Shown: positions 1,813-64,000 of the stretch, one piece after another | Position numbering within the stretch: position 1 is the stretch's first letter | How the letters are laid out: every line of letters starts with the position of its first letter | From: Eledone cirrhosa | Taxonomy: Eukaryota | Reading direction: 5' to 3' | NCBI GenBank assembly: GCA_964016885.1 | Contig: OZ024741.1 | Coordinates: 336,164,001-336,228,000 of the forward strand | DNA length: 64,000 bases | Program-made: the position numbers and the translations under genes | Notes under the pieces: model-generated | Seen by the model: only the letters and a program-made list of their open reading frames with translations | Told to the model about the DNA's origin: nothing | Database searches by the model: none

Positions 1813-3456
1813 AGATCTAGCTGTCAAAATGGCCGGAGTTCAGCCGTCGGGGTCCTGACTCTTTTTATATTACCCACTCTACTACCCTAAGTATCAAGTA
1901 CTCTGGTGTGTTCACTTGGTATGTTACCACACCTTCTTTGTTATATATATTTAATGTATAACTAATTGGCCAAGTTGTTAGAACATCGAATTGAATGGTT
2001 TGAGATATTTGTTTCAGCTCTCTACTCTCTGAATTTAAATCCTGCTGAGGTCAACATTACTGTTTATCCATTTGAGGTAGATAAATATAGTGCCATTCTA
2101 GTACTGGGGTCAATTCTTCCTCTATATCTCTTACTCACTTCTATTCTCTCATTCTACTCTTCTCAGGAAGAAATCTGGAGAGGAGATGGGCTCTGCCAGG
2201 TTTTAAAATGCCCTAGAAACACTATATATCAGTGCTGCTACAACTCCCTTGGGGTTTACAGGACTATGCATGCATATATAATGCATATATATAGAATAAG
2301 TAGAAGACTTGGAAAAAGTAATTACCCTTTAAGATGATACTCCAACATGGCCACAGTCAACTGATTAAAACTAATAAAAAAAAATGAAGGAAAAATATAC
2401 CTGGTTTAAATGGATTGCATTTTTTTTTTTTTGTTCTTTTTAAATTTCCTCCCCATTAGTAGCAAAACAATATTATTTATTGCTATAAAATTATATTGAA
2501 AAGAGGAGAAAAATATTTACTGCGTGCTTTGTGTTTGTATAGTAGTAGGAGTATTTGTTGGCAGAGAAAGAGAGAAATGAGGAGTGTGTATGAAGTAGAG
2601 TCTAGAAAGTCAGCCTACAATAAAGGGAGCTTACTGTGTTAATATTAATTGTGGTGGTAGAGAAAATGCCTGAAATCGCAAACGGATGATTTAAAATATA
2701 GTTGTGATTATTTGTGCACGTGAGTGAGTGTGTGTGCGTGTGTGCGCGCAAAAGCAAAGCACTTGACTAAAGAAACATTGAGAGAATTTGAAATGTGTGC
2801 GAGTAAAAGCAAATTACTTTAATAGTAGATCACTACACACACATTTACACACACACATATATATATATATTTGTGTGTGTGTAATATTATATGATGCATG
2901 AATTCTTGGTTTCGTCTAACCCATGCTAGCGTGCAAAATGGATGTAAGACGATGATGATTCCAAAATGAGGAAGTCGAGAAATCTGAGTAGAACTCAATA
3001 CATGTTTAGGTACAGAATAATGGTAAAATCTCAATTGAATTCCCTGCCCATTTCCGCTACGTCATAAGTGTGCAGAGACAAGGATGGCCACCCTCCCTTC
3101 CTTTGAAAACAAACAACTCTAGCCAGTCACCACCAAGGCTTGAAAGCAGTCATTTTAGGGCTTGCAAAATTTCTAACAGCCACTTAGTTTCAGGATTGGT
3201 ATATGTATATTTATTGAGAAACATGATCATTATACATATTAAATATGTATTGAAACCTTAACATAATATATATATATATATGCATATATGGGTGTGTGTA
3301 TGTGTGTGTGTATATATATATGTGCTTATATATATAATATTTCAGACACATATGAATTGTTGCATACACACATGCAAGCACATGAATATACATGCATATA
3401 TATACACACAAAGTAATAGCGTCAATGCTTATATATATATAAATATATATATATAT

Positions 3457-6400
3457 CTCGTGGACGAGAATGCGAGCACTCCTCTTTGTTTCGTCCGCGG
3501 ATGGCTAACATAACCCTATCTCCCCCCGCCCCCCACCACCCCCACCCTCCAAACGCAACCCAAAACTTCAGAGTTGGTACCATAAATGTAGGCACCCTAA
3601 AGGGTCGCGCCAACGAGGTTGTAGAAATGCTTGAACGTAAGGAGGTCGATGTTTGTTGTATTCAAGAGACCAGGTGGAGGGGTGGGTCTGCTAGATTCAT
3701 TGAGGGTAAAAAACGATGTTATAAGCTTTTCTGGGTGGGAAACGACGATGGGCTGGGTGGAGTAGGAATCATGGTAGCAGAAAAGTGGGCAGATAAGATA
3801 ATAGACGTAAATAGAGTGAACGACAGAATAATTAAAATACGACTTGTCCTCAATAGAACTACGGTGACAGTAATATCTGCGTACGCACCCCAATCCGGAC
3901 TGCCCGGCACTATAAAAGACAGATTCTATGAGACACTGTTGCTAACTACCTCCCAAATATCTGACAGTGACTATATAATTATTGCAGGCGACCTAAATGG
4001 CCACGTTGGACAACATTGTGACGGCTACGACGAAATCCATGGAGGCTATGGGTTTGGTACTAGAAATGAGGAAGGCTCCAGAATCCTGGAATTCTGTGAT
4101 GCAAATAACCTAACTATCTGTAACACTAACTTCAAAAAACGTGACAATCACCTGATCACCTATAGATCCGGGGAACACACAAGCCAGGTAGATTATATCC
4201 TTACCAGAAGACGTGACAGAGTGTCTGTTGTAAACACTAAATCCCTCCCCCATGAAGAATGCACCTCCCAACATAGACTGATAATTAGCGACCTCATAGT
4301 CAGGACGAGACGTACTCGACAGCAGAAGAGGACTATCCTCAGGAGGAAAATATGGAAACTAAAGGACCCCACAGCCAGAAATAAATTTCAAAGCATATTA
4401 CTTGATGCTTTCGACAGTAAGGAAGAGCATCTAGAATCGGACAATATAGAGGGACAGTGGGAATTTCTGAAAGCAAACCTGCTGTTGGCGACAGACGAAG
4501 TCTGTGGCTGGAGCAGGCCTGTAGGCAGGAGGAGAGTAACATGGTGGTGGAACAGTAGGGTGGAGGGATCAATTAAGGCCAAAAAGCAGGCTTGGAAAGT
4601 ATGGCGGGATGGGGGAAGTAGAGTAGACTATCAAGTGGCCAGGAGGGAAGCTAGGAGAGAAGTGTACTTAGCAAGAAGGGAAGCTGAGGAAAGAAAGTTC
4701 AAGCATGTTCTACAACGCGATGACCAAAAACGTGAGGTGTTCAGGATTGCTAGGCAATGCGTCAAGGAAAACCGTGATATTGTCGGGGAGAAGTGTGTAC
4801 TTAACGATGATGGCATACTTGCCATCACCGACACTGATAAGAAGGTAGCTTGGAAGTGTCACTATGAAAGGCTACTAAATGAGGAGAACAAATGGGAGAA
4901 AGACAGTCTCCCCCATATCGACCCAATAGAGGGACCAGCAGTGTTAGTCGAGGGGAGTATAATAAGTAAGGCAATCAAGGATATGAAGACGGGTAAGGCG
5001 GCTGGGCCTTCGGAAATAGTTGCTGAGATGCTGAAGGCATCTGGCACGGTGGGACACACCATGGTCACCTACATAGTTAACCAAGTCGTACAGAATGGGG
5101 TTGTTCCGAAGGACTGGCATAGCAGCATCATCGTTAACTGTTATAAGGGTAAAGGAGACGCCCTAGATAGGAGTAACTATAGAGGCATTAAATTAATCGA
5201 CCAGGTCATGAAGGTCACGGAAAAAGTAATAGCGCAACTAATCAGAGAGAGAATTGACCTAGATGAAATGCAGTTCGGGTTTGTGTCGGGCAAAAGCACC
5301 ACAGACGCTCTTTTCATAGTACGACAACTACAGGAGAAGTACCTAGCTAAAGGTAAACCCCTCTACTTAGCTTTTGTCGACCTGGAGAAAGCCTTCGACA
5401 GAGTCCCCCGCTCCATTATCTGGTGGGCTCTTAGAAAACTAGGCGTTGACGAATGGCTTGTGAGGGCTATACAAGCCATGTATAAAGAAACAGTCAGCAA
5501 GGTTAGAATTAACAACGAATATAGTGAAGAGTTTAGCGTAAAAGTTGGCGTCCATCAGGGCTCTGTTCTCAGCCCCCTACTATTTATTATTGCCCTTCAG
5601 GCTATAACAGAGGAGTTCAAGACAGGCTGCCCATGGGAACTCCTATACGCAGACGACCTCACACTCATAGCGGAATCAATGGCCGAGCTAGAGAAGAAAT
5701 TCCAAACATGGAAGCACGGCCTAGAGTCAAAAGGACTTAAAATTAACCTGGCTAAGACCAAAGTTCTAGTTTGTAGGAAAGAAAACAAGGCGGCGGTCCC
5801 TTCTGGGAAATGGTCGTGCTCGGTGTGTAGGAAAGGCGTAGGTAGAAACTCCATTTTATGTCCTAAATGCAAAGTATGGGTGCATAAAAGATGTAGTGGG
5901 ATCACAGGTAAGCTAACTAAGAACATAGATTTTACATGTGGCCGGTGTTCTGGTGCAATAAGTAGCAGCAAGTGCCCACAAAATACTAGCTCTTTCAATT
6001 GCGCAGAGGGTTCTATAGAAATAGTGGACAGCTTCCGTTACCTGGGCGATAAAATCAGCAGTGGGGGAGGGTGCTCTGAAAGTACTGTAGCTAGAGTCAG
6101 AACTGGTTGGAAAAAGTTAAGAGAGCTTATACCACTATTAGCTGCTAAAGGGTTCTCCCTAAAAATGAAAGGCAGGTTGTACGATGCCTGCATACGAACA
6201 GCAATGTTGCATGGTAGTGAGACCTGGGCATTGTGTGCAGAGGATATACGCAGACTAGAGAGGAACGAAGCTTGCATGCTCCGCTGGATGTGTAACAGTA
6301 ATATACATGAACGGCAAAGCATAAACGAACTAAGGAAAAAATTAGAGATAAGAGGGATCAGATGTTGTTTACTCGAGAGAAGGCTGCGTTGGTATGGACA

Positions 6401-6972
6401 CGTGATGCGCATGAAAGTCGATAGCTGTATAACAAAGTGCAGGGCAATGAAGATAGACGGTAGCCACGGAATAGGCAGACCTAGAAAAACCTGGGATGAG
6501 CTGATAAACTCCGACCTCACACACTTACACCTCTCCAAGACAATGTCACTGAACCGAGACCTTTGGCGGTACTCAGTAACAGAGAAGACCCGCCTTGCCA
6601 GTAGGCATCTCTAACAAAATACACCCCGTCCCGCCACCACCCCCACCCCATCCACACCACCCCGTTCTATGTAAAGTTATGTTGGTGCCGCGCCATCCAG
6701 GCCGAAACAAATGAGATCGTGTAGGTGTCACGACAAAAAAACACACAGTCCACGCTGTAATGTGGCCGTGTAGGCAACACGGTAAAAACCTCCCAGACCC
6801 ACACTGTAAATGTGGTTGGTGTTAGGAAGGGCATCCAACTGTAGAAAACCTGCCAGACAGTCCTATGCGAGCAAGACAATCACTCTTGCCTCAAGTGGGA
6901 CTACCCCCGTCCAAACCCATGCAAGCATGGAACACTGACGTTAAACTTTGATGATGACGATGATGATGATGA

Positions 6973-6976
<4 letters not shown>
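3457..6976 (+). mobile_element. Near full-length RTE LINE with ~340-bp 3' UTR and (GAT)n tail, inside a (TA)n microsatellite
   Basis: TA runs at about 3430-3456 and 6976-7017; 3' UTR ends ...gacgttaaactttgatgatgac. Confidence 0.92.
3486..6614 (+). CDS. RTE-clade LINE polyprotein: AP endonuclease + reverse transcriptase + PHD-like C4HC3 finger; apparently intact
   Basis: Uninterrupted 1042-aa ORF (first ATG 3501). APE motifs GTINVGTL, CIQETRW, SAYAP, GDLNGHVG, QVDYIL, SQH. RT motifs QFGF, FVDLEKAFD, GVHQGSVLSP, YADD. Finger CSVC..CPKC..HKRC..CGRC. RTE-type C-terminus RRLRWYGHV..GRPRKTW. Confidence 0.95.
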   Translation: MFRPRMANITLSPPAPHHPHPPNATQNFRVGTINVGTLKGRANEVVEMLERKEVDVCCIQETRWRGGSARFIEGKKRCYKLFWVGNDDGLGGVGIMVAEKWADKIIDVNRVNDRIIKIRLVLNRTTVTVISAYAPQSGLPGTIKDRFYETLLLTTSQISDSDYIIIAGDLNGHVGQHCDGYDEIHGGYGFGTRNEEGSRILEFCDANNLTICNTNFKKRDNHLITYRSGEHTSQVDYILTRRRDRVSVVNTKSLPHEECTSQHRLIISDLIVRTRRTRQQKRTILRRKIWKLKDPTARNKFQSILLDAFDSKEEHLESDNIEGQWEFLKANLLLATDEVCGWSRPVGRRRVTWWWNSRVEGSIKAKKQAWKVWRDGGSRVDYQVARREARREVYLARREAEERKFKHVLQRDDQKREVFRIARQCVKENRDIVGEKCVLNDDGILAITDTDKKVAWKCHYERLLNEENKWEKDSLPHIDPIEGPAVLVEGSIISKAIKDMKTGKAAGPSEIVAEMLKASGTVGHTMVTYIVNQVVQNGVVPKDWHSSIIVNCYKGKGDALDRSNYRGIKLIDQVMKVTEKVIAQLIRERIDLDEMQFGFVSGKSTTDALFIVRQLQEKYLAKGKPLYLAFVDLEKAFDRVPRSIIWWALRKLGVDEWLVRAIQAMYKETVSKVRINNEYSEEFSVKVGVHQGSVLSPLLFIIALQAITEEFKTGCPWELLYADDLTLIAESMAELEKKFQTWKHGLESKGLKINLAKTKVLVCRKENKAAVPSGKWSCSVCRKGVGRNSILCPKCKVWVHKRCSGITGKLTKNIDFTCGRCSGAISSSKCPQNTSSFNCAEGSIEIVDSFRYLGDKISSGGGCSESTVARVRTGWKKLRELIPLLAAKGFSLKMKGRLYDACIRTAMLHGSETWALCAEDIRRLERNEACMLRWMCNSNIHERQSINELRKKLEIRGIRCCLLERRLRWYGHVMRMKVDSCITKCRAMKIDGSHGIGRPRKTWDELINSDLTHLHLSKTMSLNRDLWRYSVTEKTRLASRHL

Positions 6977-10555: not shown

Positions 10556-10941
10556 CAAAGTCAATGACACACGACCGTGACTTCTGGCGTCACGCAGTAA
10601 TACAGGGTACCCGACCTCCCATGGGTACATGCTGAAGCATATAAACAATATGCCCCCCCCCCCCCCCACCGCAAGGTGGCCGTGGAGGTGCCATGGCAAA
10701 AAAGCACCCAGCCCACACTGTAAAGTGGACGTGTAGGCGCCACGAAAAAGCACCCAGCACTCACTGTAAATGAGGTTGGTGTTAGGAAGGGCATCCAGCT
10801 GTAGAAATCAAGCCAGATCAGTTCCTGTATGAGCAAGGCATGGTCAGCCGACCAGACACTGCCCACAACAGGACAACCCGTCTAACCCATGCTAGCGTGG
10901 AAGAACGGACGTAAAACGGTGATGATGATGATGATGATGAT
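10556..10941 (+). mobile_element. RTE-tail SINE/LINE 3' fragment, tail-to-tail with the 10942-12900 RTE
   Basis: Contains ggttggtgttaggaagggcatccagctgtagaaa and ends cggacgtaaaacggtgatgatg. Confidence 0.8.
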
Positions 10942-13667: not shown

Positions 13668-13941
13668 TCTACTATTTTTTAAGGCAATGCACGCAACAAC
13701 TATCTAATAATTAAATGATCATAGTGAATTACTGACAAGTGATTGACATTTTAAAGTTCTTTTGAGTATAATTGCAATCTAGTTGAGGCAACTGGCTTAA
13801 TGACAAAGCTAGTAAATCATGAATGCATTTGAGATGATTAGTGCATAATAGTGAATTGGTGAAACTTGTACATTTCAATGGTGTTACAACAATAGATGTA
13901 AGTTATATAGTGGTAATACTTTATCATTTTAACTTTTTAGA

Positions 13942-14301
13942 ATGGACAAAAACCCATGCAAAGAAATGACTTTGGCTGCAGTGATTCTCTCCAATTTACT
14001 TACAAAGCAAAACGTGGTCAAATACCTTATCATCTCTGATAAAATGCCCATTGAATCACTGAAAATCGGATGCATGGAATTCCTCATAAAATGCACCTAT
14101 GAATCGGAAGCCATCACATATATCAATGGATATAGGGAGTTGTTCACACTGGAAGACCATCACTTCATTTGTGACTTCATCAGTTATCTCCACGATTATC
14201 TCAGACACCCAATGCCATTGATGAGAGGTGATCCAATGTGTGAGCATGTAACTAATCTTATAGAAGTTGTTATCGACCACCTGGCTTTTAGTGACATTTG
14301 A
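13942..14301 (+). CDS. 119-aa ORF resembling an SPOP-type BACK domain (possible exon)
   Basis: SNLLTKQNVVKYLIISDKMPIESLKIGCMEFLIK..AITYINGYREL parallels the SPOP pattern [42 protein letters not shown] (recalled, by eye); preceded by an acceptor-like tttttag. Confidence 0.5.
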   Translation: MDKNPCKEMTLAAVILSNLLTKQNVVKYLIISDKMPIESLKIGCMEFLIKCTYESEAITYINGYRELFTLEDHHFICDFISYLHDYLRHPMPLMRGDPMCEHVTNLIEVVIDHLAFSDI

Positions 14302-19445: not shown

Positions 19446-21039
19446 TTGTTGCTGTTATTAGCCGAGGTTAACTTTGCCTTTCATCCTTACGGGGTCGATA
19501 AAATAAAGTACCAGTAATATACTGGAATAATTGCTGGCCTTGTGCCAAAAGTAGAAACAATTATTATTATTATTATTATCATTATTATTATTACCCAAAA
19601 CATTTCATGTTGAAGGTTTATAGACACATCAAAATTGAGAACCACCAGATGTTTATTGATCCTGGTAAATCTTCTGTTATGTTAAAACACCACAAATGCC
19701 TTTGAGAAAACCATCTATGTCATACTATCTTATTTTCCTTACTTTATCAATTCAAGGTCTTGTGTCTACGTAGAAAAAAAAATCAATAATTTACCTTTGT
19801 TCAAAGTGTTTTTGGACAAATATTTTTATATCAGATGAAGCTACTGTTCAATGAATTACAAATATATTTTCTTGCATTTGTTAAATTTTTTTATGATATT
19901 CACAGTAGAGACAATTGCAATTGTATGTTTCAGAAAACTGGGTTATAGTGTTAAGAAAGTCACTTCTATGTATGGGACTCTTTCGGCGTAATGTGTATGT
20001 CCTTAATGTTTGTGGCAGTAAAAGGGGATTGGATATCATTGTGTGATTTAGAACTAATATTAACTACTAGATACAACATTTATATTATTTTTCTATGTTG
20101 GAGTTCATTGGTAATACCAATAATGGTTTCTGATTTAGACACAAGGCCAACAATTTTTGGGGAGGGGAAAGTCAATTAAATCGACCCCAGTGCTTTATTT
20201 TATGGACCCAAGATAACACTAAATAATGTAGTATGAGATATATAACTGCTAAAGAAAATAAAAGTTGAGGTGATCGAAGAAGGAATGTTTTGCCTGCGAT
20301 TTGACTGTTCAATCTTTCAAAGCTCTTCATTAATTAATTGAAATAATGTGTATTTCGTTAGAAATGTGGTAACGAAATGTTTAAATTATTTGGAAGAAGT
20401 TAAAGGAAATTATTCTTTTATCTTTATATATATAAAAGCGAGGATGTGTGTGTGTCTGTGTACAACTTTGGATACCTAAGGCTTTTACAATTACCAACCG
20501 AATTTGACCAAATTTTCTGTGCACGTTGCACAGGTCGCTAAGATGGTCACATCACAAACATTTTTCCAATCGCCCCCTGTTGAGCAATAAAAAATCGATA
20601 TCAAAATTATCGGTAGCAAAATTGATGTAAGGGAAATAACCAACTTTATTGACAATCCTTATAATAAAAGGGAGATAGCCAACTTTATTGACAATCCTTA
20701 TAAAGAGAGTGAGATATGGAGACCTTCGTTTTCAATTTTAAAACAACAATCATCGTCGGACGAAATTTCAGAAATATAAACATCAGATTTATCTTCAAAT
20801 GAATCTGATGTTTATATTTCTGAATTGACGAGATTTTGATGATGGTTTGTTTATTTTTAGAACAATCCTTATGGGACTTTCTATTCAAACCATTGGGACC
20901 TACAGCTTTTACATTTTTAAAGTAATTTCGTCCACATTTGAGGCAGGCATTATCTATGCTTCCAGCTGTATTCGTACACATCAACATTTTTTGACAATGA
21001 AGGAACATACTGAACAGGATTCTTCCTGGATGTCCACGG

Positions 21040-21561
21040 ATATATAAATCTATTGATACTGTATGTGATCCACAGGATGTGGTCAACTATCCAGTTGAAT
21101 TTCTAAATTCTTTAAATCCTCCTGGTTTACCTCCTAATACATTCGTTCTGAAAGAGGGAACGCCAGTTATTTTGCTGAGAAATATCACTCCTCCAAAACT
21201 ATGCAATGGTACACGCCTTGTGGTTAAAAAACTGTCTCCACTTAGTATTGACGCTACCATTCTATCCGGATGTGGAAAAGGCCAGGATGTGATAATAACA
21301 AAAATTAGCCTGACTACATCAGGCGTGGATACTCCCTTCTCCTTTCGCCGAACCCAATTTCCCCTTCGTGTTGACTTTGCGATGTCCATAAACAAGTCGC
21401 AAGGTCAAACTCTGTCCGTCACTGGAATTCACTTGGATGAACCTTGCTTTTCGCACGGACAATTCTACATTGCCTGCTCACGAGTTGGCAGTCGAGATAA
21501 TCTCTTTGCGTTTGTTCCGAAAAGAAAAACAAAGAATATCGTCTATCCTGATGTGCTTTAG
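21040..21561 (+). pseudogene. C-terminal fragment of Helitron PIF1-like helicase
   Basis: YPVEFLNSL.PPGLP..L.LK.G.PVILLRN..PPKLCNGTRL, RRTQFPLRVDFAMSINKSQGQTL, FSHGQFYIACSRV, TKNIVY. Confidence 0.92.
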
Positions 21562-52625: not shown

Positions 52626-53479
52626 GGGGTTATTAAAAAGTCTTAATTTTAACTCTCTTATCTTTGTTCAATTCTATTTATATTATTCATTTAACAAATT
52701 CAAGCTATGTTTTTCTTAACTGTTCATTTAAAACAATTTTTTTTTCTCTTTTTTTGTTGTTTAAATTTATTGGCAATTTTTTTATATCTTCTTTGTTCTT
52801 TAATGGAAAATAAATTTATTAGGAAACAGATGTAGGCAATAATGAAAGATTTTTTTTTTTCTTTAAAAAAAGGGCAAAATAGAAAAATATTGGGGAGGAG
52901 AAAAATTAAATAACATCAAAACGGGAAAAATTAAATAACATCAAAACGGGAAGAGGGAAGGGTGGGTCAAACTCTACACCCTTGGTTAGGCGGTATATTT
53001 AATTGTATGCTAATGTCACTAGAGCTCATAAAAAAATTTTTGTTTGACTTTGTTAAGGTTTTTCTTTTTTTTTATAGAATTTGATTGAGTACCTAGCATG
53101 TTCCTAATTAGATTTTTCACCAATTTCTGTAAGCTTTCCAACACATTTTTTTTTGATAGATGAGTCTTTTTGCCATGACATTCAATTGGTCATTTCCAAC
53201 CAGTAGCAACTTCCTCCTCTGCTATATATACAACTGTGATACCACTGACGCCATGACCACCACCACCACTGCACCTACTAATGTTACTACTACTAATACC
53301 ACTGCCACAACCACCACTGTTACTGTTCATATTATTGCTACAACTACCTCTGCTGCTGCTCTGCTGCTGCTCCTGCTACTACTACTACTACTAACATCAC
53401 CACCACTACTACTACTACTACTAATACTACCACCACCACCACCACTACTACTACTACTACCCCACCAGCACCACTACCA

Positions 53480-56400
53480 TAAAGTAGTTTGGTGTTAAGA
53501 AGGGCATCCAGCCATAGAGACCAATCTCACAGTCCACCCAGTATATGGTAGTTTAGGGTTAGGGAGGGCCTCCAGCCATAGAAACCAATCTCACAGTCCA
53601 CCCAGTATATGGTAGTTTAGGGTTAGGGAGGGCCTCCAGCCATAGAAACCAATCTCACAGTCCACCCAGTATATGGTAGTTTAGGGTTAGGAAGGGCCTC
53701 CAGCCATAGAAACTATGCTCACAGTTCACCCAGTATATGGCAGTTTAGGGTTAGGAAGGGCATCCAGCCATAGAAACCAATCTCACAGTCCACCCAGTAT
53801 ATGGTAGTTTAGAGTTAGGAAGGGCCTCCAGCCATAGAAACTATGCGCACAGTCCACCCAGTATATGGTAGTTTAGGGTTAGGAAAGGCATCCAGCCATA
53901 GAAATCAATCTCACAGTCCACCCAGTATATGGTAGTTTAGAGTTAGGAAAGGTATCCAGCCATAGAAACCAATCTCACAGTCCACCCAGTATATGGTAGT
54001 TTAGGGTTAGGAAAGGTATCCAGCCATAGAAATCAATCTCACAGTCCACCCAGTATATGGTAGTTTAGAGTTAGGAAAGGTATCCAGCCATAGAAACCAA
54101 TCTCACAGTCCACCCAGTATATGGTAGTTTAGGGTTAGGAAAGGCATCCAGCCATAGAAATCAATCTCACAGTCCACCCAGTATATGGTAGTTTAGGGTT
54201 AGGAAAGGCATCCAGCCATAGAAATCAATCTCACAGTCCACCCAGTATATGGTAGTTTAGGGTTAGGAAAGGTATCCAGCCATAGAAACCAATCTCACAG
54301 TCCACCCAGTATATGGTAGTTTATGGTTAGGAAGGGCCTCCAGCCATAGAAAACAATCTCACAGTCCACCCAGTATATGGTAGTTTAGGGTTAGAAAAGG
54401 CATCCAGCCATAGAGACCAATCTCACAGTCCACCCAGTATATGGTAGTTTAGGGTTAGGAAGGGCCTCCAGCCATAGAAACTATGCTCACAGTCCACCCA
54501 GTATATGGTAGTTTAGGGTTAGGAAGGGCATCCAGCCATAGAAACCAATCTCACAGTCCACCCAGTATATGGTAGTTTAGGGTTAGGAAGGGCATCCAGC
54601 GATAAAACCAATCTCACAGTCCACCCAGTATATGGTAGTTTAGGGTTAGGGACGGGCATCCAGCCATAGAAACCAATCTCACAGTCCACCCAGTATATGG
54701 TAGTTTAGGGTTAGGAAGGGCATCCAGCCATAGAAACCAATCTCACAGTCCACCCAGTATATGGTAGTTTAGGGTTAGGAAAGGCATCCAGCCATAGAGA
54801 CCAATCTCACAGTCCACCCAGTATATGATAGTTTAGGGTTAGGAAGGGCATCCAGCCATAGAAACCAATCTCACAGTCCACCCAGTATATGGTAGTTTAG
54901 TGTTAGGGAGGGCATCCAGCCATAGAAACCAATCTCACAGTCTACCCAGTATATGGTGGTTTAGGGTTAGGAAGGACATCCAGCCATAGAAACCAATCTC
55001 ACAGTCCACCCAGTATATGGTAGTTTAAGGTTAGGAAGGGCATCCAGCCATAGAAACCAATCTCACAGTCCACCCAGTATATGGTAGTTTAGGGTTAGGA
55101 AGGGCCTCCAGCAATAGAAACCAATCTCACAGTCCACCCAGTATATGGTAGTTTAGGGTTAGGAAAGGCATCCAGCCATAGAGACCAATCTCACAGTCCA
55201 CCCAGTATATGGTAGTTTAGGTTTAGGGAGGGCATCCAGCCATAGAAACCAATCTCACAGTCCACCCAGTATATGGTAGTTTAGGGTTAGGAAGGGCATC
55301 CAGCGATAGAAACCAATCTCACAGTCCACCCAGTATATGGTAGTTTAAGGTTAGGAAGGGCATCCAGCCATAGAAACCAATCTCACAATCCACCCAGTAT
55401 ATGGTAGTTTAGGGTTAGGGAGGGCATCCAGCCATAGAAACCAATCTCACAGTCCACCCAGTATATGGTAGTATAGGGTTAGGAAGGGCATCCAGCCATA
55501 GAAACCAATCTCACAGTCCACCCAGTATATGGTAGTTTAGGGTTAGGAAGGGCATCCAGCCATAGAAACCAATCTCACAGTCCACCCAGTATATGGTAGG
55601 TTAGGGTTAGGGAGGGCATCCAGCCATAGAAACCAATCTCACAGTCCACCCAGTATATGGTAGTTTAGGGTTAGGGAGGGCATCCAGCCATAGAAACCAA
55701 TCTCACAGTCCACCCAGTATATGGTAGGTTAGGGTTAGGGAGGGCATCCAGCCATAGAAACCAATCTCACAGTCCACCCAGTATATGGTAGTTTAGGGTT
55801 AGGGAGGGCATCCAGCCATAGAAACCAATCTCACAGTCCACCCAGTATATGGTAGTTTAGGGTTAGGAAAGGCATCCAGCCATAGAAACCAATCTCACAG
55901 TCCACCCAGTATATGGTAGTTTAGGGTTAGGGAGGGCATCCAGCCATAGAAACCAATCTCACAGTCTACCCAGTATAAGGTAGTTTAGGGTTAGGGAGGG
56001 CATCCAGCCATAGAAACCAATCTCACAGTCCACCCAGTATATGGTAGGTTAGGGTTAGGGAGGGCATCCAGCCATAGAAACCAATCTCACAGTCTACCCA
56101 GTATATGGTAGTTTAGGGTTAGGGAGGGCATCCAGCCATAGAAACCAATCTCACAGTCTACCCAGTATATGGTAGGTTAGGGTTAGGGAGGGCATCCAGC
56201 CATAGAAACCAATCTCACAGTCCACCCAGTATATGGTAGTTTAGGGTTAGGAAGGGCATCCAGCCATAGAAACCAATCTCACAGTCCACCCAGTATATGG
56301 TAGTTTAGGGTTAGGAAAGGCATCCAGCCATAGAAACCAATCTCACAGTCCACCCAGTATATGGTAGTTTAGGGTTAGGAAGGGCATCCAGCCATAGAAA

Positions 56401-59400
56401 CCAATCTCACAGTCCACCCAGTATATGGTAGTTTAGGGTTAGGGAGGGCATCCAGCCATAGAAACCAATCTCACAGTCCACCCAGTATATGGTAGTTTAG
56501 GGTTAGGGAGGGCATCCAGCCATAGAAACCAATCTCACAGTCCACCCAGTATATGGTAGTTTAGGGTTAGGGAGGGCATCCAGCCATAGAAACCAATCTC
56601 ACAGTCTACCCAGTATATGGTAGTTTAGGGTTAGGAAGGGCATCCAGCCATAGAAACCAATCTCACAGTCCACCCAGTATATGGTAGTTTAGGGTTAGGA
56701 AAGGCATCCAGCCATAGAAACCAATCTCACAGTCCACCCAGTATATGGTAGTTTAGGGTTAGGAAGGGCATCCAGCCATAGAAACCAATCTCACAGTCCA
56801 CCCAGTATATGGTAGTTTAGGGTTAGGAAAGGCATCCAGCCATAGAAACCAATCTCACAGTCCATCCAGTATATGGTAGTTTAGGGTTAGGAAGGGCATC
56901 CAGCCATAGAAACCAATCTCACAATCCATCCAGTATATGGTAGTTTAGGGTTAGGAAAGGCATCCAGCCATAGAAACCAATCTCACAGTCCACCCAGTAT
57001 ATGGTAGTTTAGGGTTAGGAAAGGCATCCAGCCATAGAAACCAATCTCACAGTCCACCCAGTATATGGTAGTTTAGGGTTAGGAAGGGCATCCAGCCATA
57101 GAAACCAATCTCACAATCCACCCAGTATATGGTAGTTTAGGGTTAGGAAAGGCATCCAGCCATAGAAACCAATCTCACAGTCCACCCAGTATATGGTAGT
57201 TTAGGGTTAGGAAGGGCATCCAGCCATAGAAACCAATCTCACAGTCCACCCAGTATATGGTAGGTTAGGGTTAGGAAAGGCATCCAGCCATAGAAACCAA
57301 TCTCACAGTCCATCCAGTATATGGTAGTTTAGGGTTAGGAAGGGCATCCAGCCATAGAAACCAATCTCACAGTCCACCCAGTATATGGTAGTTTAGGGTT
57401 AGGAAAGGCATCCAGCCATAGAAACCAATCTCACAGTCTACCCAGTATATGGTAGTTTAGGGTTAGGGAGGGCATCCAGCCATAGAAACCAATCTCACAG
57501 TCCACCCAGTATATGGTAGTTTAGGGTTAGGAAAGGCATCCAGCCATAGAAACCAATCTCACAGTCCACCCAGTATATGGTAGTTTAGGGTTAGGAAGGG
57601 CATCCAGCCATAGAAACCAATCTCACAGTCCACCCAGTATATGGTAGTTTAGGGTTAGGGAGGGCATCCAGCCATAGAAACCAATCTCACAGTCCACCCA
57701 GTATATGGTAGTTTAGGGTTAGGGAGGGCATCCAGCCATAGAAACCAATCTCACAGTCCACCCAGTATATGGTAGGTTAGGGTTAGGGAGGGCATCCAGC
57801 CATAGAAACCAATCTCACAGTCCACCCAGTATATGGTAGTTTAGGGTTAGGGAGGGCATCCAGCCATAGAAACCAATCTCACAGTCCACCCAGTATATGG
57901 TAGTTTAGGGTTAGGGAGGGCATCCAGCCATAGAAACCAATCTCACAGTCCACCCAGTATATGGTAGTTTAGGGTTAGGAAGGGCATCCAGCCATAGAAA
58001 CCAATCTCACAGTCCACCCAGTATAGGGTAGTTTAGGGTTAGGAAAGGCATCCAGCCATAGAAACCAATCTCACAGTCCACCCAGTATATGGTAGTTTAG
58101 GGTTAGGGAGGGCATCCAGCCATAGAAACCAATCTCACAGTCCACCCAGTATATGGTAGTTTAGGGTTAGGAAGGGCATCCAGCCATAGAAACCAATCTC
58201 ACAGTCCACCCAGTATATGGTAGTTTAGGGTTAGGGAGGGCATCCAGCCATAGAAACCAATCTCACAGTACACCCAGTATATGGTAGTTTAGGGTTAGGG
58301 AGGGCATCCAGCCATAGAAACCAATCTCACAGTCCACCCAGTATATGGTAGTTTAGGGTTAGGAAGGGCATCCAGCCATAGAAACCAATCTCACAGTACA
58401 CCCAGTATATGGTAGTTTAGGGTTAGGGAGGGCATCCAGCCATAGAAACCAATCTCACAGTCCACCCAGTATATGGTAGTTTAGGGTTAGGAAGGGCATC
58501 CAGCCATAGAAACCAATCTCACAGTCCACCCAGTATATGGTAGTTTAGGGTTAGGAAGGGCATCCAGCCATAGAAACCAATCTCACAGTCCACCCAGTAT
58601 ATGGTAGTTTAGGGTTAGGAAGGGCATCCAGCCATAGAAACCAATCTCACAGTACACCCAGTATATGGTAGTTTAGGGTTAGGGAGGGCATCCAGCCATA
58701 GAAACCAATCTCACAGTCCACCCAGTATATGGTAGTTTAGGGTTAGGAAGGGCATCCAGCCATAGAAACCAATCTCACAGTACACCCAGTATATGGTAGT
58801 TTAGGGTTAGGGAGGGCATCCAGCCATAGAAACCAATCTCACAGTCCACCCAGTATATGGTAGTTTAGGGTTAGGAAGGGCATCCAGCCATAGAAACCAA
58901 TCTCACAGTACACCCAGTATATGGTAGTTTAGGGTTAGGGAGGGCATCCAGCCATAGAAACCAATCTCACAGTCCACCCAGTATAAGGTAGTTTAGGGTT
59001 AGGAAGGGCATCCAGCCATAGAAACCAATCTCACAGTCCACCCAGTATATGGTAGTTTAGGGTTAGGAAGGGCATCCAGCCATAGAAACCAATCTCACAG
59101 TCCACCCAGTATATGGTAGTTTAGGGTTAGGAAGGGCATCCAGCCATAGAAACCAATCTCACAGTCCACCCAGTATATGGTAGTTTAGGGTTAGGAAGGG
59201 CATCCAGCCATAGAAACCAATCTCACAGTACACCCAGTATATGGTAGTTTAGGGTTAGGGAGGGCATCCAGCCATAGAAACCAATCTCACAGTCCACCCA
59301 GTATATGGTAGTTTAGGGTTAGGAAGGGCATCCAGCCATAGAAACCAATCTCACAGTCCACCCAGTATATGGTAGTTTAGGGTTAGGAAGGGCATCCAGC

Positions 59401-62400
59401 CATAGAAACCAATCTCACAGTCCACCCAGTATATGGTAGTTTAGGGTTAGGGAGGGCATCCAGCCATAGAAACCAATCTCACAGTCCACCCAGTATATGG
59501 TAGTTTAGGGTTAGGGAGGGCATCCAGCCATAGAAACCAATCTCACAGTCCACCCAGTATATGGTAGTTTAGGGTTAGGGAGGGCATCCAGCCATAGAAA
59601 CCAATCTCACAGTCCACCCAGTATATGGTAGTTTAGGGTTAGGGAGGGCATCCAGCCATAGAAACCAATCTCACAGTCCACCCAGTATATGGTAGTTTAG
59701 GGTTAGGAAAGGCATCCAGCCATAGAAACCAATCTCACAGTCCACCCAGTATATGGTAGTTTAGGGTTAGGAAAGGCATCCAGCCATAGAAACCAATCTC
59801 ACAGTCCACCCAGTATATGGTAGTTTAGGGTTAGGAAAGGCATCCAGCCATAGAAACCAATCTCACAGTCCACCCAGTATAAGGTAGTTTAGGGTTAGGA
59901 AGGGCATCCAGCCATAGAAACCAATCTCACAGTCCACCCAGTATATGGTAGTTTAGGGTTAGGGAGGGCATCCAGCCATAGAAACCAATCTCACAGTCCA
60001 CCCAGTATATGGTAGTTTAGGGTTAGGGAGGGCATCCAGCCATAGAAACCAATCTCACAGTCCACCCAGTATATGGTAGTTTAGGGTTAGGAAAGGCATC
60101 CAGCCATAGAAACCAATCTCACAGTCCACCCAGTATATGGTAGTTTAGGGTTAGGAAAGGCATCCAGCCATAGAAACCAATCTCACAGTCCACCCAGTAT
60201 AAGGTAGTTTAGGGTTAGGAAGGGCATCCAGCCATAGAAACCAATCTCACAGTCCACCCAGTATATGGTAGTTTAGGGTTAGGGAGGGCATCCAGCGATA
60301 GAAACCAATCTCACAGTCCACCCAGTATAGGGTAGTTTAGGGTTAGGGAGGGCATCCAGCCATAGAAACCAATCTCACAGTCCACCCAGTATATGGTAGT
60401 TTAGGGTTAGGGAGGGCATCCAGCCATAGAAACCAATCTCACAGTCCACCCAGTATATGGTAGTTTAGGGTTAGGGAGGGCATCCAGCCATAGAAACCAA
60501 TCTCACAGTCCACCCAGTATATGGTAGTTTAGGGTTAGGAAGGGCATCCAGCCATAGAAACCAATCTCACAGTCCACCCAGTATGAGGTAGTTTAGGGTT
60601 AGGGAGGGCATCCAGCCATAGAAACCAATCTCACAGTCCACCCAGTATATGGTGTTTTAGGGTTAGGAAGGGCATCCAGCCATAGAAACCAATCTCACAG
60701 TCCACCCAGTATATGGTAGTTTAGGGTTAGGGAGGGCATCCAGCCATAGAAACCAATCTCACAGTCCACCCAGTATATGGTAGTTTAGGTTGAGGGAGGG
60801 CATCCAGCCATAGAAACCAATCTCACAGTCCACCCAGTATATGGTAGTTTAGAGTTAGGAAGGGCCTCCAGCCATAGAAACTATGCGCACAGTCCACCCA
60901 GTATATGGTAGTTTAGGGTTAGGAAAGGCATCCAGCCATAGAAATCAATCTCACAGTCCACCCAGTATATGGTAGTTTAGGTTTAGGAAAGGTATCCAGC
61001 CATAGAGACCAATCTCACAGTCCACCCAGTATATGGTAGTTTAGGGTTAGGAAGGGCCTCCAGCCATAGAAACCAATCTCACAGTCCACCCTGTATATGG
61101 TAGTTTAGGGTTAGGAAGGGCCTCCAGCCATAGAAACCAATCTCACAGTCCACCCAGTATATGGTAGTTTAAGGTTAGGAAGGGCATCCAGACATAGAAA
61201 CCAATCTCACAGTCCACCCAGTATATGGTAGTTTAGGGTTAGGAAGGGCATCCAGCCATAGAAACCAATCTCACAGTCCACCCAGTATATGGTAGTTTAA
61301 GGTTAGGAAGGGCATCCAGACATAGAAACCAATCTCAGAGTCCACCCAGTATATGGTAGTTTAGGGTTAGGAAGGGCCTCCAGCCATAGAAACCAATCTC
61401 ACAGTCCACCCTGTATATGGTAGTTTAGGGTTAGGAAAGGCATCCAGCCATAGAAATCAATCTCACAGTCCACCCAGTATATGGTAGTTTAGGGTTAGGA
61501 AGGGCCTCCAGCCATAGAAACCAATCTCACAGTCCACCCTGTATATGGTAGTTTAGGGTTAGGAAAGGCATCCAGCCATAGAAATCAATCTCACAGTCCA
61601 CCCAGTATATGGTAGTTTAGGGTTAGGAAGGGCCTCCAGCCATAGAAACCAATCTCACAGTCCACCCTGTATATGGTAGTTTAGGGTTAGGAAGGGCCTC
61701 CAGCCATAGAAACCAATCTCACAGTCCACCCTGTATATGGTAGTTTAGGGTTAGGAAGGGCATCCAGCCATAGAAACCAATCTCACAGTCCACCCTGTAT
61801 ATGGTAGTTTAGGGTTAGGAAAGGCATCCAGCCATAGAAATCAATCTCACAGTCCACCCAGTATATGGTAGTTTAGGGTTAGGAAGGGCATCCAGCCATA
61901 GAAACCAATCTCACAGTCCACCCTGTATATGGTAGTTTAGGGTTAGGAAAGGCATCCAGCCATAGAAATCAATCTCACAGTCCACCCTGTATATGGTAGT
62001 TTAGGGTTAGGAAGGGCCTCCAGCCATAGAAACCAATCTCACAGTCCACCCTGTATATGGTAGTTTAGGGTTAGGAAGGGCCTCCAGCCATAGAAACCAA
62101 TCTCACAGTCCACCCTGTATATGGTAGTTTAGGGTTAGGAAAGGCATCCAGCCATAGAAATCAATCTCACAGTCCACCCAGTATATGGTAGTTTAGGGTT
62201 AGGGAGGGCCTCCAGCCATAGAAACCAATCTCACAGTCCACCCAGTATATGGTAGTTTAGGGTTAGGAAGGGCCTCCAGCCATAGAGACCAATCTCACAG
62301 TCCACCCAGTATATGGTAGTTTAGGGTTAGAAAAGGCATCCAGCCATAGAGACCAATCTCACAGTCCACCCAGTATATGGTAGTTTAGGGTTAGGGAGGG

Positions 62401-64000
62401 CCTCCAGCCATAGAAACCAATCTCACAGTCCACCCAGTATATGGTAGTTTATGGTTAGGAAGGGCCTCCAGCCATAGAGACCAATCTCACAGTCCACCCA
62501 GTATATGGTAGTTTAGGGTTAGAAAAGGCATCCAGCCATAGAGACCAATCTCACAGTCCACCCAGTATATGGTAGTTTAGGGTTAGGGAGGGCCTCCAGC
62601 CATAGAAACCAATCTCACAGTCCACCCAGTATATGGTAGTTTAGGGTTAGGAAGGGCCTCCAGCCATAGAGACCAATCTCACAGTCCACCCAGTATATGG
62701 TAGTTTAGGGTTAGGAAAGGCATCCAGCCATAGAGACCAATCTCACAGTCCACCCAGTATATGGTAGTTTAGGGTTAGTGAGGGCCTCCAGCCATAGAAA
62801 CCAATCTCACAGTCCACCCAGTATATGGTAGTTTAGGGTTAGGAAGGGCCTCCAGCCATAGAAACCAATCTCACAGTCCACCCAGTATATGGTAGTTTAG
62901 GGTTAGAAAAGGCATCCAGCCATAGAGACCAATCTCACAGTCCACCCAGTATATGGTAGTTTAGGGTTAGGGAGGGCCTCCAGCCATAGAAACCAATCTC
63001 ACAGTCCACCCAGTATATGGTAGTTTATGGTTAGGAAGGGCCTCCAGCCATAGAAACCAATCTCACAGTCCACCCAGTATATGGTAGTTTAGGGTTAGAA
63101 AAGGCCTCCAGCAATAGAAACCAATCTCACAGTCCACCCAGTATATGGTAGTTTAGGGTTAGGAAGGGCCTCCAGCCATAGAAACTATGCTCACAGTCCA
63201 CCCTGTATATGGTAGTTTAGGGTTAGGAAAGGCATCCAGCCATAGAGACCAATCTCACAGTCCACCCAGTATATGGTAGTTTAGGGTTAGGAAGGGCCTC
63301 CAGCCATAGAAACTATGCTCACAGTCCACCCAGTATATGGTAGTTTAGGGTTAGGAAGGGCATCCAGCCATAGAAACCAATCTCACAGTCCACCCAGTAT
63401 ATGGTAGTTTAGGGTTAGGAAGGGCATCCAGCGATAAAACCAATCTCACAGTCCACCCAGTATATGGTAGTTTAGTGTTAGCGAGGGCATCCAGCCATAG
63501 AAACCAATCTCACAGTCTACCCAGTATATGGTGGTTTAGGGTTAGGAAGGACATCCAGCCATAGAAACCAATCTCACAGTCCACCCAGTATATGGTAGTT
63601 TAAGGTTAGGAAGGGCATCCAGCCATAGAAACCAATCTCACAGTCCACCCAGTATATGGTAGTTTAGGGTTAGGAAGGGCATCCAGCGATAAAACCAATC
63701 TCACAGTCCACCCAGTATATGGTAGTTTAGGGTTAGGGACGGGCATCCAGCCATAGAAACCAATCTCACAGTCCACCCAGTATATGGTAGTTTAGGGTTA
63801 GGAAGGGCCTCCAGCCATAGAAACTATGCTCACAGTTCACCCAGTATATGGTAGTTTAGGGTTAGGAAAGGCATCCAGCCATAGAGACCAATCTCACAGT
63901 CCACCCAGTATATGATAGTTTAGGGTTAGGAAGGGCATCCAGCCATAGAAACCAATCTCACAGTCCACCCAGTATATGGTAGTTTAGTGTTAGCGAGGGC
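53480..64000 (+). repeat. 64-bp satellite array (about 164 units, continues past window end)
   Basis: Unit agtccacccagtatatggtagtttagggttaggaagggcatccagccatagaaaccaatctcac. Confidence 0.99.

What the first reader, a model, noticed from the sequence alone, without database searches (positions are those of the whole stretch)
53540..64000. Satellite units have converted a retroposon motif into telomeric TTAGGGTTAG, spaced every 64 bp
Seen: ancestral ttggtgttagg has become TTAGGGTTAGG in most units. A frequent variant, mainly at about 55400-60800, completes TTAGGGTTAGGG-AGGG, and some read ggtaggTTAGGGTTAGGGaggg. The G-rich strand points to the window end, the polarity of a right-arm telomere. 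Established: TTAGGG is the usual molluscan telomere repeat, YTAGGGTTR is the TRF1 Myb half-site and TTAGGGTTAG is the human POT1 binding decamer. Inference: a retroposon-derived subtelomeric satellite that could recruit shelterin-like proteins, with sites about 6 helical turns apart and possible G-quadruplex or TERRA-like transcripts.
Basis: partly seen in the sequence, partly recalled or inferred. Interest (0 to 1): 0.8.

Follow-up and report, generated by a model that had tools for sequence, protein, structure and literature searches.

The report
Mid-chromosome retroposon satellite, telomere look-alike
A 27-kb tandem array built from a piece of a common retroposon tail carries a ten-letter telomere-like word in most units, but it lies 80 Mb from the nearest scaffold end, and a sister array of equal size lacks the word, so the resemblance is likely a founder accident copied along with the repeat.

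Summary
TTAGGGTTAG is in 145 of 164 units in the window (355 of 416 in the whole array) and derives from the retroposon tail TTGGTGTTAGG by two substitutions. The array is interstitial: 26.7 kb at C2:336.2 Mb, 80 Mb from the scaffold end, 94 Mb from C2's own large interstitial telomere block, between two protocadherin-like ORFs, with no (TTAGGG)3 in 334 kb. It is one of 20 tandem multimers of the same 61-66-bp tail segment that I measured; one of equal size (428 units) keeps the ancestral word. Dispersed copies reach TTAGGG by chance as often as a non-telomeric control double mutant (6 vs 7; expected 2.6 vs 2.7). Inside the array the decamer changes as fast as the rest of the unit, the strand is not G-rich, and 3 of 416 units have four G3 runs. 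Best reading: a retroposon-derived satellite (the kind described in squamates) whose founder unit carried the word. Passive binding by a TRF-like protein is untested and remains possible; the coincidence is modest but real (about 1-4% among the arrays sampled).

The parts
53484..64000 (+). 64-bp satellite array, 164 units in the window; continues to window-equivalent 80170 (G000:C2:336217484-336244170; 26.7 kb, 416 full units and a partial last one)
53464..53547 (+). Left terminal copy: remnant of the parent element's upstream part followed by a tail that keeps ancestral TTGGTG (53489-53494); the only unit without A at unit position 8
53553..53562 (+). First TTAGGGTTAG decamer (unit positions 6-15); recurs every 64 bp in 145 of 164 window units
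55404..60843 (+). Block rich in the A17G haplotype that completes a second TTAGGG (39 of 45 window copies of TTAGGGTTAGGGAGGG); a young haplotype, 184 of 416 units array-wide
53376..53479 (.). (CTA/CCA)n microsatellite abutting the left end of the array
3420..6975 (+). LINE with an open 1064-aa frame (endonuclease, reverse transcriptase, PHD) whose 3' UTR holds the ancestral tail word at 6816 and ends in (TGA)n; shows the source family, not the direct parent
10776..10811 (+). One of eight dispersed tail copies in the window left of the array (others near 1295-, 6822+, 10141-, 11084-, 33077+, 37587+, 40776-); none has TTAGGG

Best explanation
This is a single-locus, mid-chromosome satellite made of a 64-bp piece of an octopod-type LINE/SINE 3' tail, and its telomere-like decamer is likely a neutral founder trait that was copied 400-fold with the unit. 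Shown: an old subfamily of the tail carries a 61-bp internal duplication (2-5 copies at many loci); at some loci this unit has grown to tens or hundreds of copies, each array with its own fixed private changes; here the unit differs from the family majority by 10 substitutions and 3 inserted bases, two of which turn TTGGTG into TTAGGG. Inferred: the first duplication arose by slippage at a short microhomology between the sequence after GAAACC and the start of the unit; the founder had an ancestral left tail and a TTAGGG right tail; unequal exchange or slippage amplified spacer plus right tail, and later block duplications spread young haplotypes such as A17G. Predicted: no selected telomere function; the locus would behave as a variable-length tandem repeat inside a protocadherin gene neighbourhood.
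For: Position: C2:336.2 Mb of 416,293,306 bp; no (TTAGGG)3 or (CCCTAA)3 in 334 kb around it; C2's interstitial telomere block is at 241.93-242.33+ Mb; single-exon cadherin ORFs of 879 and 848 aa lie 130 kb upstream and 36 kb downstream. Single locus: 331 of 337 genome matches to the TTAGGG form lie in this array. Chance rate: ancestral 90,874; single mutants 983 (5 in the array), 244 and 1024; telomere-like double mutant 6 dispersed copies (expected 2.6), control double mutant TTGAGG 7 (expected 2.7). Sisters: 19 other multimers of 4-428 units, 0 of 19 with the decamer fixed; C5:1.30 Mb has 428 units, 26.1 kb, ancestral word. No constraint: changes per site and unit inside vs outside the decamer 0.0212 vs 0.0210 (A17 units) and 0.0076 vs 0.0088 (G17 units), Fisher p 0.75; 28 of 64 ten-base windows are at least as intact. 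A variant at 44% is ordinary: 5 of 8 large sisters have a top minor allele of 0.36-0.50. TTAGGG is already in 12 of 17 units of the oldest (ATG-spacer) class, and a non-telomeric spacer change swept to 95%. The last copy carries TTAGGG and runs into the element's native continuation. Block duplications up to 10 units.
Against: The coincidence is not trivial: scaling genome mutation rates to each array's divergence gives only 0.01-0.04 expected arrays with both changes among the 20 sampled, yet this array is one of the two largest found, and its commonest polymorphism (A17G, 184 of 416) adds a second perfect TTAGGG and lifts G4Hunter from 1.08 to 1.28. Seven units have the intermediate TTAGTG, two of them in the oldest class, so the second change may have swept after amplification began. 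One array is one event: neutrality tests within it have little power against an effect of the motif on amplification rate. The survey is incomplete: the measured arrays hold 1318 of 2281 junction matches. No binding or chromatin data.
Confidence: 0.85

Rival explanations
1. Accidental telomere mimic with an effect: a TRF-like Myb dimer would bind pairs of the 355 half-sites by looping, stall forks or alter chromatin, and so drive the array's own expansion and favour the A17G haplotype, possibly influencing the neighbouring protocadherin genes.
For: 355 YTAGGGTTR sites; human TRF1 dimers need two such sites with no constraint on spacing or orientation (PMC3241663, passages); TRF1/2 occupy some short interstitial sites in mammals, depending on length and conservation (PMC6410037, passages); a POT1-domain exon is in the genome (C21:12.015 Mb, 31.9 bits, cut-off 29); chance expectation 0.01-0.04 among sampled arrays; G4Hunter at least 1.2 in 168 of 415 unit windows.
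Against: Decamer decays at the background rate; equal amplification without it; half-site density 13 per kb against 92 per kb in C2's interstitial telomere block of at least 0.4 Mb, so the array is about 1% of that block as a binding sink; POT1 needs single-stranded DNA; no TRFH match in the genome (inconclusive); G4Hunter never reaches 1.5 (telomere 1.56) and the folds of two-unit RNAs show no quadruplex.
Confidence: 0.1
2. A subtelomeric satellite, either at a present end or left at an old end that was fused into C2.
For: Host telomeres are TTAGGG; C1-C4 are 379-443 Mb against 136 Mb or less for the other sampled contigs and C1 and C2 hold large interstitial TTAGGG blocks, so fusions probably happened; the five largest sisters lie within 14 Mb of a scaffold end.
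Against: 80 Mb from the end and 94 Mb from the C2 block; no telomere tract or N gap in or beside the array (only gap at 336.390 Mb); 0 of 36 sampled ends hold the unit; both array ends pass into parent-element sequence.
Confidence: 0.02
3. A centromeric or pericentromeric satellite of the right-hand component of C2.
For: It lies about midway between the interstitial telomere block and the scaffold end (94 and 80 Mb); an unrelated 15-bp satellite of at least 23 kb starts 131 kb downstream.
Against: Only 26.7 kb, one locus, flanked by protocadherin-like ORFs and ordinary TE-rich DNA; no copy on other chromosomes at near identity (a lower-bound search).
Confidence: 0.02
4. An assembly artefact (over-expanded repeat).
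For: Long tandem arrays are error-prone in assemblies (own knowledge); no listed public contig spans the array.
Against: 103 distinct unit types with nested haplotype structure; no N inside; short-read contigs of the same species label hold array-specific 37-58-bp pieces at depths up to 714, a unique flank piece at 2.75 in a sister run. These runs may be the assembly's own sample, so they are not independent of it.
Confidence: 0.01

Closest known systems
SINE-derived satellites (sSat1-3) of squamate reptiles, Vassetzky et al. 2023, PMC10702118 (read parts 1, 3 and 4 of 5 of the text)
   Same: Tandem units cut from part of a retroposon; a few to hundreds of units per locus; a range from short internal duplications to long homogeneous arrays; terminal units run into the parent element; longer loci tend to chromosome ends (true of the five largest sisters here).
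   Different: Host is a coleoid cephalopod by its protocadherin-like ORFs and TTAGGG ends (the paper leaves open whether sSats occur outside squamates); unit 61-66 bp, below their 70-290 nt; it comes from the LINE-derived tail, and a SINE rather than truncated LINE parent is not shown; this locus is not subtelomeric.
Short and heterochromatic interstitial telomeric sequences (review PMC6410037, 12 of 26 passages)
   Same: Internal TTAGGG words that could in principle bind TRF proteins; 170 of 416 units have two full hexamers, the lower bound given for short ITSs.
   Different: Not a run of telomere repeats and not of telomeric origin: 10-12 bases per 64-bp unit, made by point mutation of a retroposon word; never three hexamers. 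True blocks of that kind exist elsewhere in this genome (C1:217.8 Mb, C2:241.9 Mb).
Octopus tRNA-derived SINEs (Ohshima and Okada 1994, seen only as a citation and passage in PMC4824008) and the RTE-clade LINE RTE-2_OV (PMC9115989, 12 of 36 passages)
   Same: The source tail is shared by a SINE with a tRNA-like head (L133, Rfam tRNA 28.1 bits, just under the cut-off of 29) and a single-ORF endonuclease-RT LINE of 1064 aa (RTE-2_OV: 1109 aa); SINE and LINE tails align at 67% over 240 columns.
   Different: No sequence comparison with the named families was possible; 'RTE-like' is my recalled label, not a tested clade assignment.

Membership tests
Retroposon-derived satellite (sSat type) | Unit is a sub-segment of a dispersed SINE/LINE family | tested here: met
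   Aligns to dispersed tails and to the LINE 3' UTR; 10 substitutions and 3 inserted bases from the 61-bp family majority
Retroposon-derived satellite (sSat type) | At least four head-to-tail middle monomers, homogenised | tested here: met
   416 full units, mean divergence 0.027
Retroposon-derived satellite (sSat type) | Terminal unit extends into parent-element sequence | tested here: met
   Left end aligns to parents from about 53464; right end reads on into about 10 bases of the native continuation, then similarity is lost
Retroposon-derived satellite (sSat type) | Parent is a SINE (tRNA-derived head) rather than a 5'-truncated LINE | tested here: inconclusive
   Both carry the tail; no head is left at this locus, and none was recognised by eye ahead of the 11 short multimers
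Subtelomeric (telomere-associated) satellite | Lies near a chromosome end | tested here: not met
   80 Mb from the nearest scaffold end
Subtelomeric (telomere-associated) satellite | Adjoins terminal or fused (TTAGGG)n | tested here: not met
   0 (TTAGGG)3 in 334 kb; 0 of 36 sampled ends hold the unit; C2 block 94 Mb away
Interstitial telomeric sequence | Tandem run of the telomere hexamer of telomeric or telomerase origin | tested here: not met
   At most two hexamers (170 of 416 units), none with three; origin by substitution
Shelterin-type binding site | Two or more double-stranded YTAGGGTTR half-sites | tested here: met
   355 sites; requirement from PMC3241663, human proteins
Shelterin-type binding site | Host has TRF-type and POT1-type proteins | tested here: inconclusive
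   PF02765 one exon over the cut-off; PF08558 no match, and no control rang
Shelterin-type binding site | Occupancy in vivo; single-stranded DNA for POT1 | not testable with these tools
   Needs ChIP/EMSA
G-quadruplex / TERRA-like repeat | Four runs of three G within short loops | tested here: not met
   3 of 416 units; G4Hunter maximum 1.28 in the four commonest units, 0 of 415 windows at 1.5. Two-tetrad or G-vacancy forms are not excluded
G-quadruplex / TERRA-like repeat | Array is transcribed | tested here: inconclusive
   No RNA run of the host species was offered; the one RNA-guess run laid (another organism) covers only the shared 31-bp tail core

The most novel reading that the evidence does not exclude
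A retroposon tail two mutations away from the telomere word has seeded an artificial internal telomere-protein platform: 355 TRF half-sites in a 27-kb array inside a cephalopod protocadherin neighbourhood, where binding or G-rich structure drives the array's growth and its length tunes nearby protocadherin chromatin.
Probability: 0.07. Interest if true: 0.6.

Novelty: new member of a known kind. Interest (0 to 1): 0.17.

Why it matters
As found, it matters little for telomere biology. Its value is as a clean example, apparently outside squamates, of retroposon tails seeding locus-specific satellites: one 61-bp segment has expanded at many loci, each array freezing its founder's mutations. It also supplies a ready natural control pair (this array with the telomere word, C5:1.30 Mb without it, same size and family) for asking whether isolated TTAGGGTTAG half-sites recruit telomere proteins in an invertebrate. 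If they did and affected the protocadherin genes beside the array, that would be a new route from mobile DNA to telomere-protein regulation.

Tried and rejected
Fusion-junction search: 16 head-to-head TTAGGG/CCCTAA sites, all the same short palindrome in a dispersed element (L081); none at the array; rejected as fusion scars. First junction pattern used a wrong spacer length (6-12; the real one is 5) and missed the arrays; repeated. DNA search with two units did not report the array itself because common words are skipped; used only for relatives. Apparent better conservation of the decamer in G17 units (13 of 184 vs 47 of 231 broken) vanished when outside sites were counted. Retroposon-seeded TTAGGG expansion as a general process: only 1 copy genome-wide; 9 copies have the one-base-deletion precursor; rejected as general. 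TRFH search uninformative. ARAGORN found no tRNA in the SINE head. Public runs of other organisms with shares of 0.04-0.14: laid ones cover essentially the shared tail core; contigs cannot show absence, so no claim on species range. Earlier-findings look-ups returned nothing. The original TRF1 spacing paper was not held; the point is cited through PMC3241663. Literature searches for a cephalopod retroposon-derived or telomere-like satellite listed none; PMC13282606 (Octopus vulgaris repeat annotation, 10 of 10 passages) has no occurrence of 'satellite' in its main text; its supplements and repeat libraries were not examined and may hold the family. No fold, complex or homolog searches were run, as no protein is in question.
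Full report
Observation. The window ends in one tandem array, 53484-64000, period 64, 164.3 copies, 95% matches. The first unit keeps TTGGTG. Two details do not hold: there are never three hexamers in a row and the strand is not G-rich (GC skew 0.011).

Where it lies. The window is G000:C2:336,164,001-336,228,000 on a contig of 416,293,306 bp. The array runs on for 16.2 kb and stops at C2:336,244,170: 26.7 kb, 416 full units and a partial one, no N. It is 80 Mb from the nearer end. In 334 kb around it there is no (TTAGGG)3 on either strand; the only gap is at 336.390 Mb. Single-exon cadherin ORFs of 879 aa (130 kb upstream) and 848 aa (36 kb downstream), both on +, match Pfam Cadherin at E about 1e-71 to 1e-73; I read them as cephalopod protocadherins from own knowledge of that expansion. 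TTAGGG is the real telomere: 7 of 36 sampled ends of 18 chromosome-scale contigs are telomeric, and 0 of 36 hold the 64-bp unit (the starts of two small contigs, C16 and C31, were also read, hold neither, and are left out of the 36; C2's own two ends are not telomeric in the assembly). C1-C4 are 379-443 Mb and probably fusion products; C2's interstitial telomere block is at 241.93-242.33+ Mb, 94 Mb from the array. So the array is neither at a present end nor at that probable former end.

Where the unit comes from. The unit aligns to a dispersed tail found 8 times in the rest of the window and 90,874 times exactly in the genome. The tail ends an open 1064-aa endonuclease-RT-PHD LINE at window 3420-6975 and also a SINE with a tRNA-like head (L133; Rfam 28.1 bits, cut-off 29). 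An old subfamily carries a 61-bp internal duplication: 11 of 11 C1 loci picked by the junction pattern show 2-5 copies, most followed by the native 3' end (picked for the junction, so not a frequency). The junction pattern has 2281 matches genome-wide. I measured 20 multimers of at least 4 units, this one included; they hold 1318 of the 2281 matches, so the census is partial. Sizes: 428 units (C5:1.30 Mb, 26.1 kb), 417 (this), 288, 143, at least 121, 104, 81, 72, 52, 28, 23 and nine of 4-15; periods 61, 62, 64, 66. Each has private fixed changes (1-13 substitutions from the family majority). The decamer is fixed in 1 of 20; one 4-unit sister has it in a single unit and did not expand. The five largest sisters lie within 14 Mb of a scaffold end; the one with the telomere word is the most internal of the nine largest.

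Is the conversion more than chance? Genome counts with the same tail context: single mutants TTAGTG 983 (5 in the array), TTGGGG 244, TTGATG 1024. The telomere-like double mutant has 337 matches, 331 in this array, leaving 6 dispersed copies against 2.6 expected; four were listed and inspected and are ordinary single tails. The non-telomeric double mutant TTGAGG has 7 against 2.7. Both exceed independence by the same factor, as expected if older copies carry more changes. Within the array, changes per site and unit are 0.0212 inside and 0.0210 outside the decamer for A17 units, 0.0076 and 0.0088 for G17 units (Fisher p 0.75; distinct haplotypes p 1.0); 28 of 64 ten-base windows are at least as intact as the decamer. 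A17G, which completes the second hexamer, marks a young haplotype at 184 of 416; 5 of 8 large sisters have a top minor allele of 0.36-0.50. The oldest spacer class (17 units) already has TTAGGG in 12, TTAGAG in 2, TTAAGG in 2 of which one is also G17, and TTAGTG in 2 as printed (counts by eye: 11-12 intact), and a non-telomeric spacer change has swept to 95%. Against my reading: the chance that any of the 20 arrays has both changes is only 0.01-0.04 under assumed background divergences of 1.5-3%, the array is one of the two largest, and the intermediate TTAGTG survives in 7 units. The motif was, however, chosen after the fact from a very large scan.

How it most likely works. Shown: parent tail, 61-bp duplication subfamily, locus-specific founder changes, block duplications of up to 10 units, left end with ancestral tail and right end running into the native continuation. 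Inferred: a first duplication by slippage at a short microhomology, then unequal exchange or slippage amplifying spacer plus right tail, with turnover of haplotypes; the telomere word rides along. The 64-bp spacing is 61 plus 3 inserted bases, and human TRF1 dimers bind two YTAGGGTTR sites without constraint on spacing or orientation while POT1 binds the decamer single-stranded (PMC3241663, 12 of 18 passages), so helical phase has no special meaning. The same fact keeps passive binding possible. The genome has a POT1-domain exon; a TRFH search was uninformative. The array offers 13 half-sites per kb against 92 per kb in 26 kb sampled from C2's block of at least 0.4 Mb. Three of 416 units have four G3 runs; G4Hunter reaches 1.2 in 168 of 415 windows and 1.5 in none; RNA folds of two-unit stretches with quadruplexes allowed gave none. 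No host RNA run was available. Short-read contigs under the host's species label hold array-specific pieces at high depth but may be the assembly's own sample.

Comparison with what is known. It works like, and meets the tested structural features of, the SINE-derived satellites of squamates (PMC10702118, parts 1, 3, 4 of 5), whose authors leave open whether such satellites occur elsewhere. It fails the tests for a subtelomeric satellite and for an interstitial telomeric sequence (PMC6410037, passages). Five searches (listings only) showed no report of such a satellite in cephalopods; subscription papers, supplements and repeat libraries were not seen. PMC4824008, PMC9115989, PMC13282606 and PMC12818792 were seen as passages only. 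'RTE-like', 'octopod' and 'protocadherin' are my labels from recalled knowledge on top of the Pfam and karyotype results.

Verdict. Real feature, retroposon origin right, telomere role unsupported. New member of a known kind; interest 0.17. The functional mimic reading keeps about 0.07-0.10.

Noticed in passing
L051 (G000:C1:3225951-3226012): A dispersed copy of the same tail in which the motif site has become eight TTAGGG repeats, a short interstitial telomere tract inside the retroposon; the only such copy found genome-wide.
   Followed up: yes
L052-L060 (C1:217.84-217.97+ Mb) and L174-L176 (C2:241.93-242.33+ Mb): Large degenerate single-orientation TTAGGG blocks inside 443-Mb and 416-Mb scaffolds; with C1-C4 three times longer than the next contigs these are probable fusion scars. 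C3 and C4 not located.
   Followed up: partly
L138-L141, L142, L100-L101 (C5:1.30, 9.75, 10.16 Mb): Three arrays with the same 61-bp majority unit at separate loci, in both orientations: this variant has spread between loci.
   Followed up: partly
window 3420-6975: LINE with an uninterrupted 1064-aa frame (endonuclease, RT, PHD finger) and complete-looking 3' tail; possibly a young copy.
   Followed up: partly
L159:1256-3892 and L016:1867-4410: Two single-exon protocadherin-like ORFs 195 kb apart flank the array; gene models unknown, so the array could be intronic.
   Followed up: partly
L171-L173 (from C2:336.375 Mb): Unrelated 15-bp satellite of at least 23 kb with an assembly gap inside, 131 kb downstream; C1:421.27-421.31 Mb and C5:10.15-10.18 Mb likewise hold several unrelated locus-specific minisatellites side by side.
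   Followed up: no
L081, L082 and 14 other sites: Dispersed element with a long palindrome whose centre reads two TTAGGG, nine bases, two CCCTAA; could give false telomere or fusion calls.
   Followed up: partly
L087 (end of C6): A TTGGGG variant tract lies between subtelomere and the terminal TTAGGG tract.
   Followed up: no
window 21001-21561 and 13933-14301: A Pif1-type helicase fragment (probably Helitron) and a 122-aa frame with ordinary composition and no Pfam match.
   Followed up: partly
L156 (G000:C21:12015244-12015387): Exon matching the POT1 OB domain over the Pfam cut-off; a starting point for the host POT1 gene.
   Followed up: no
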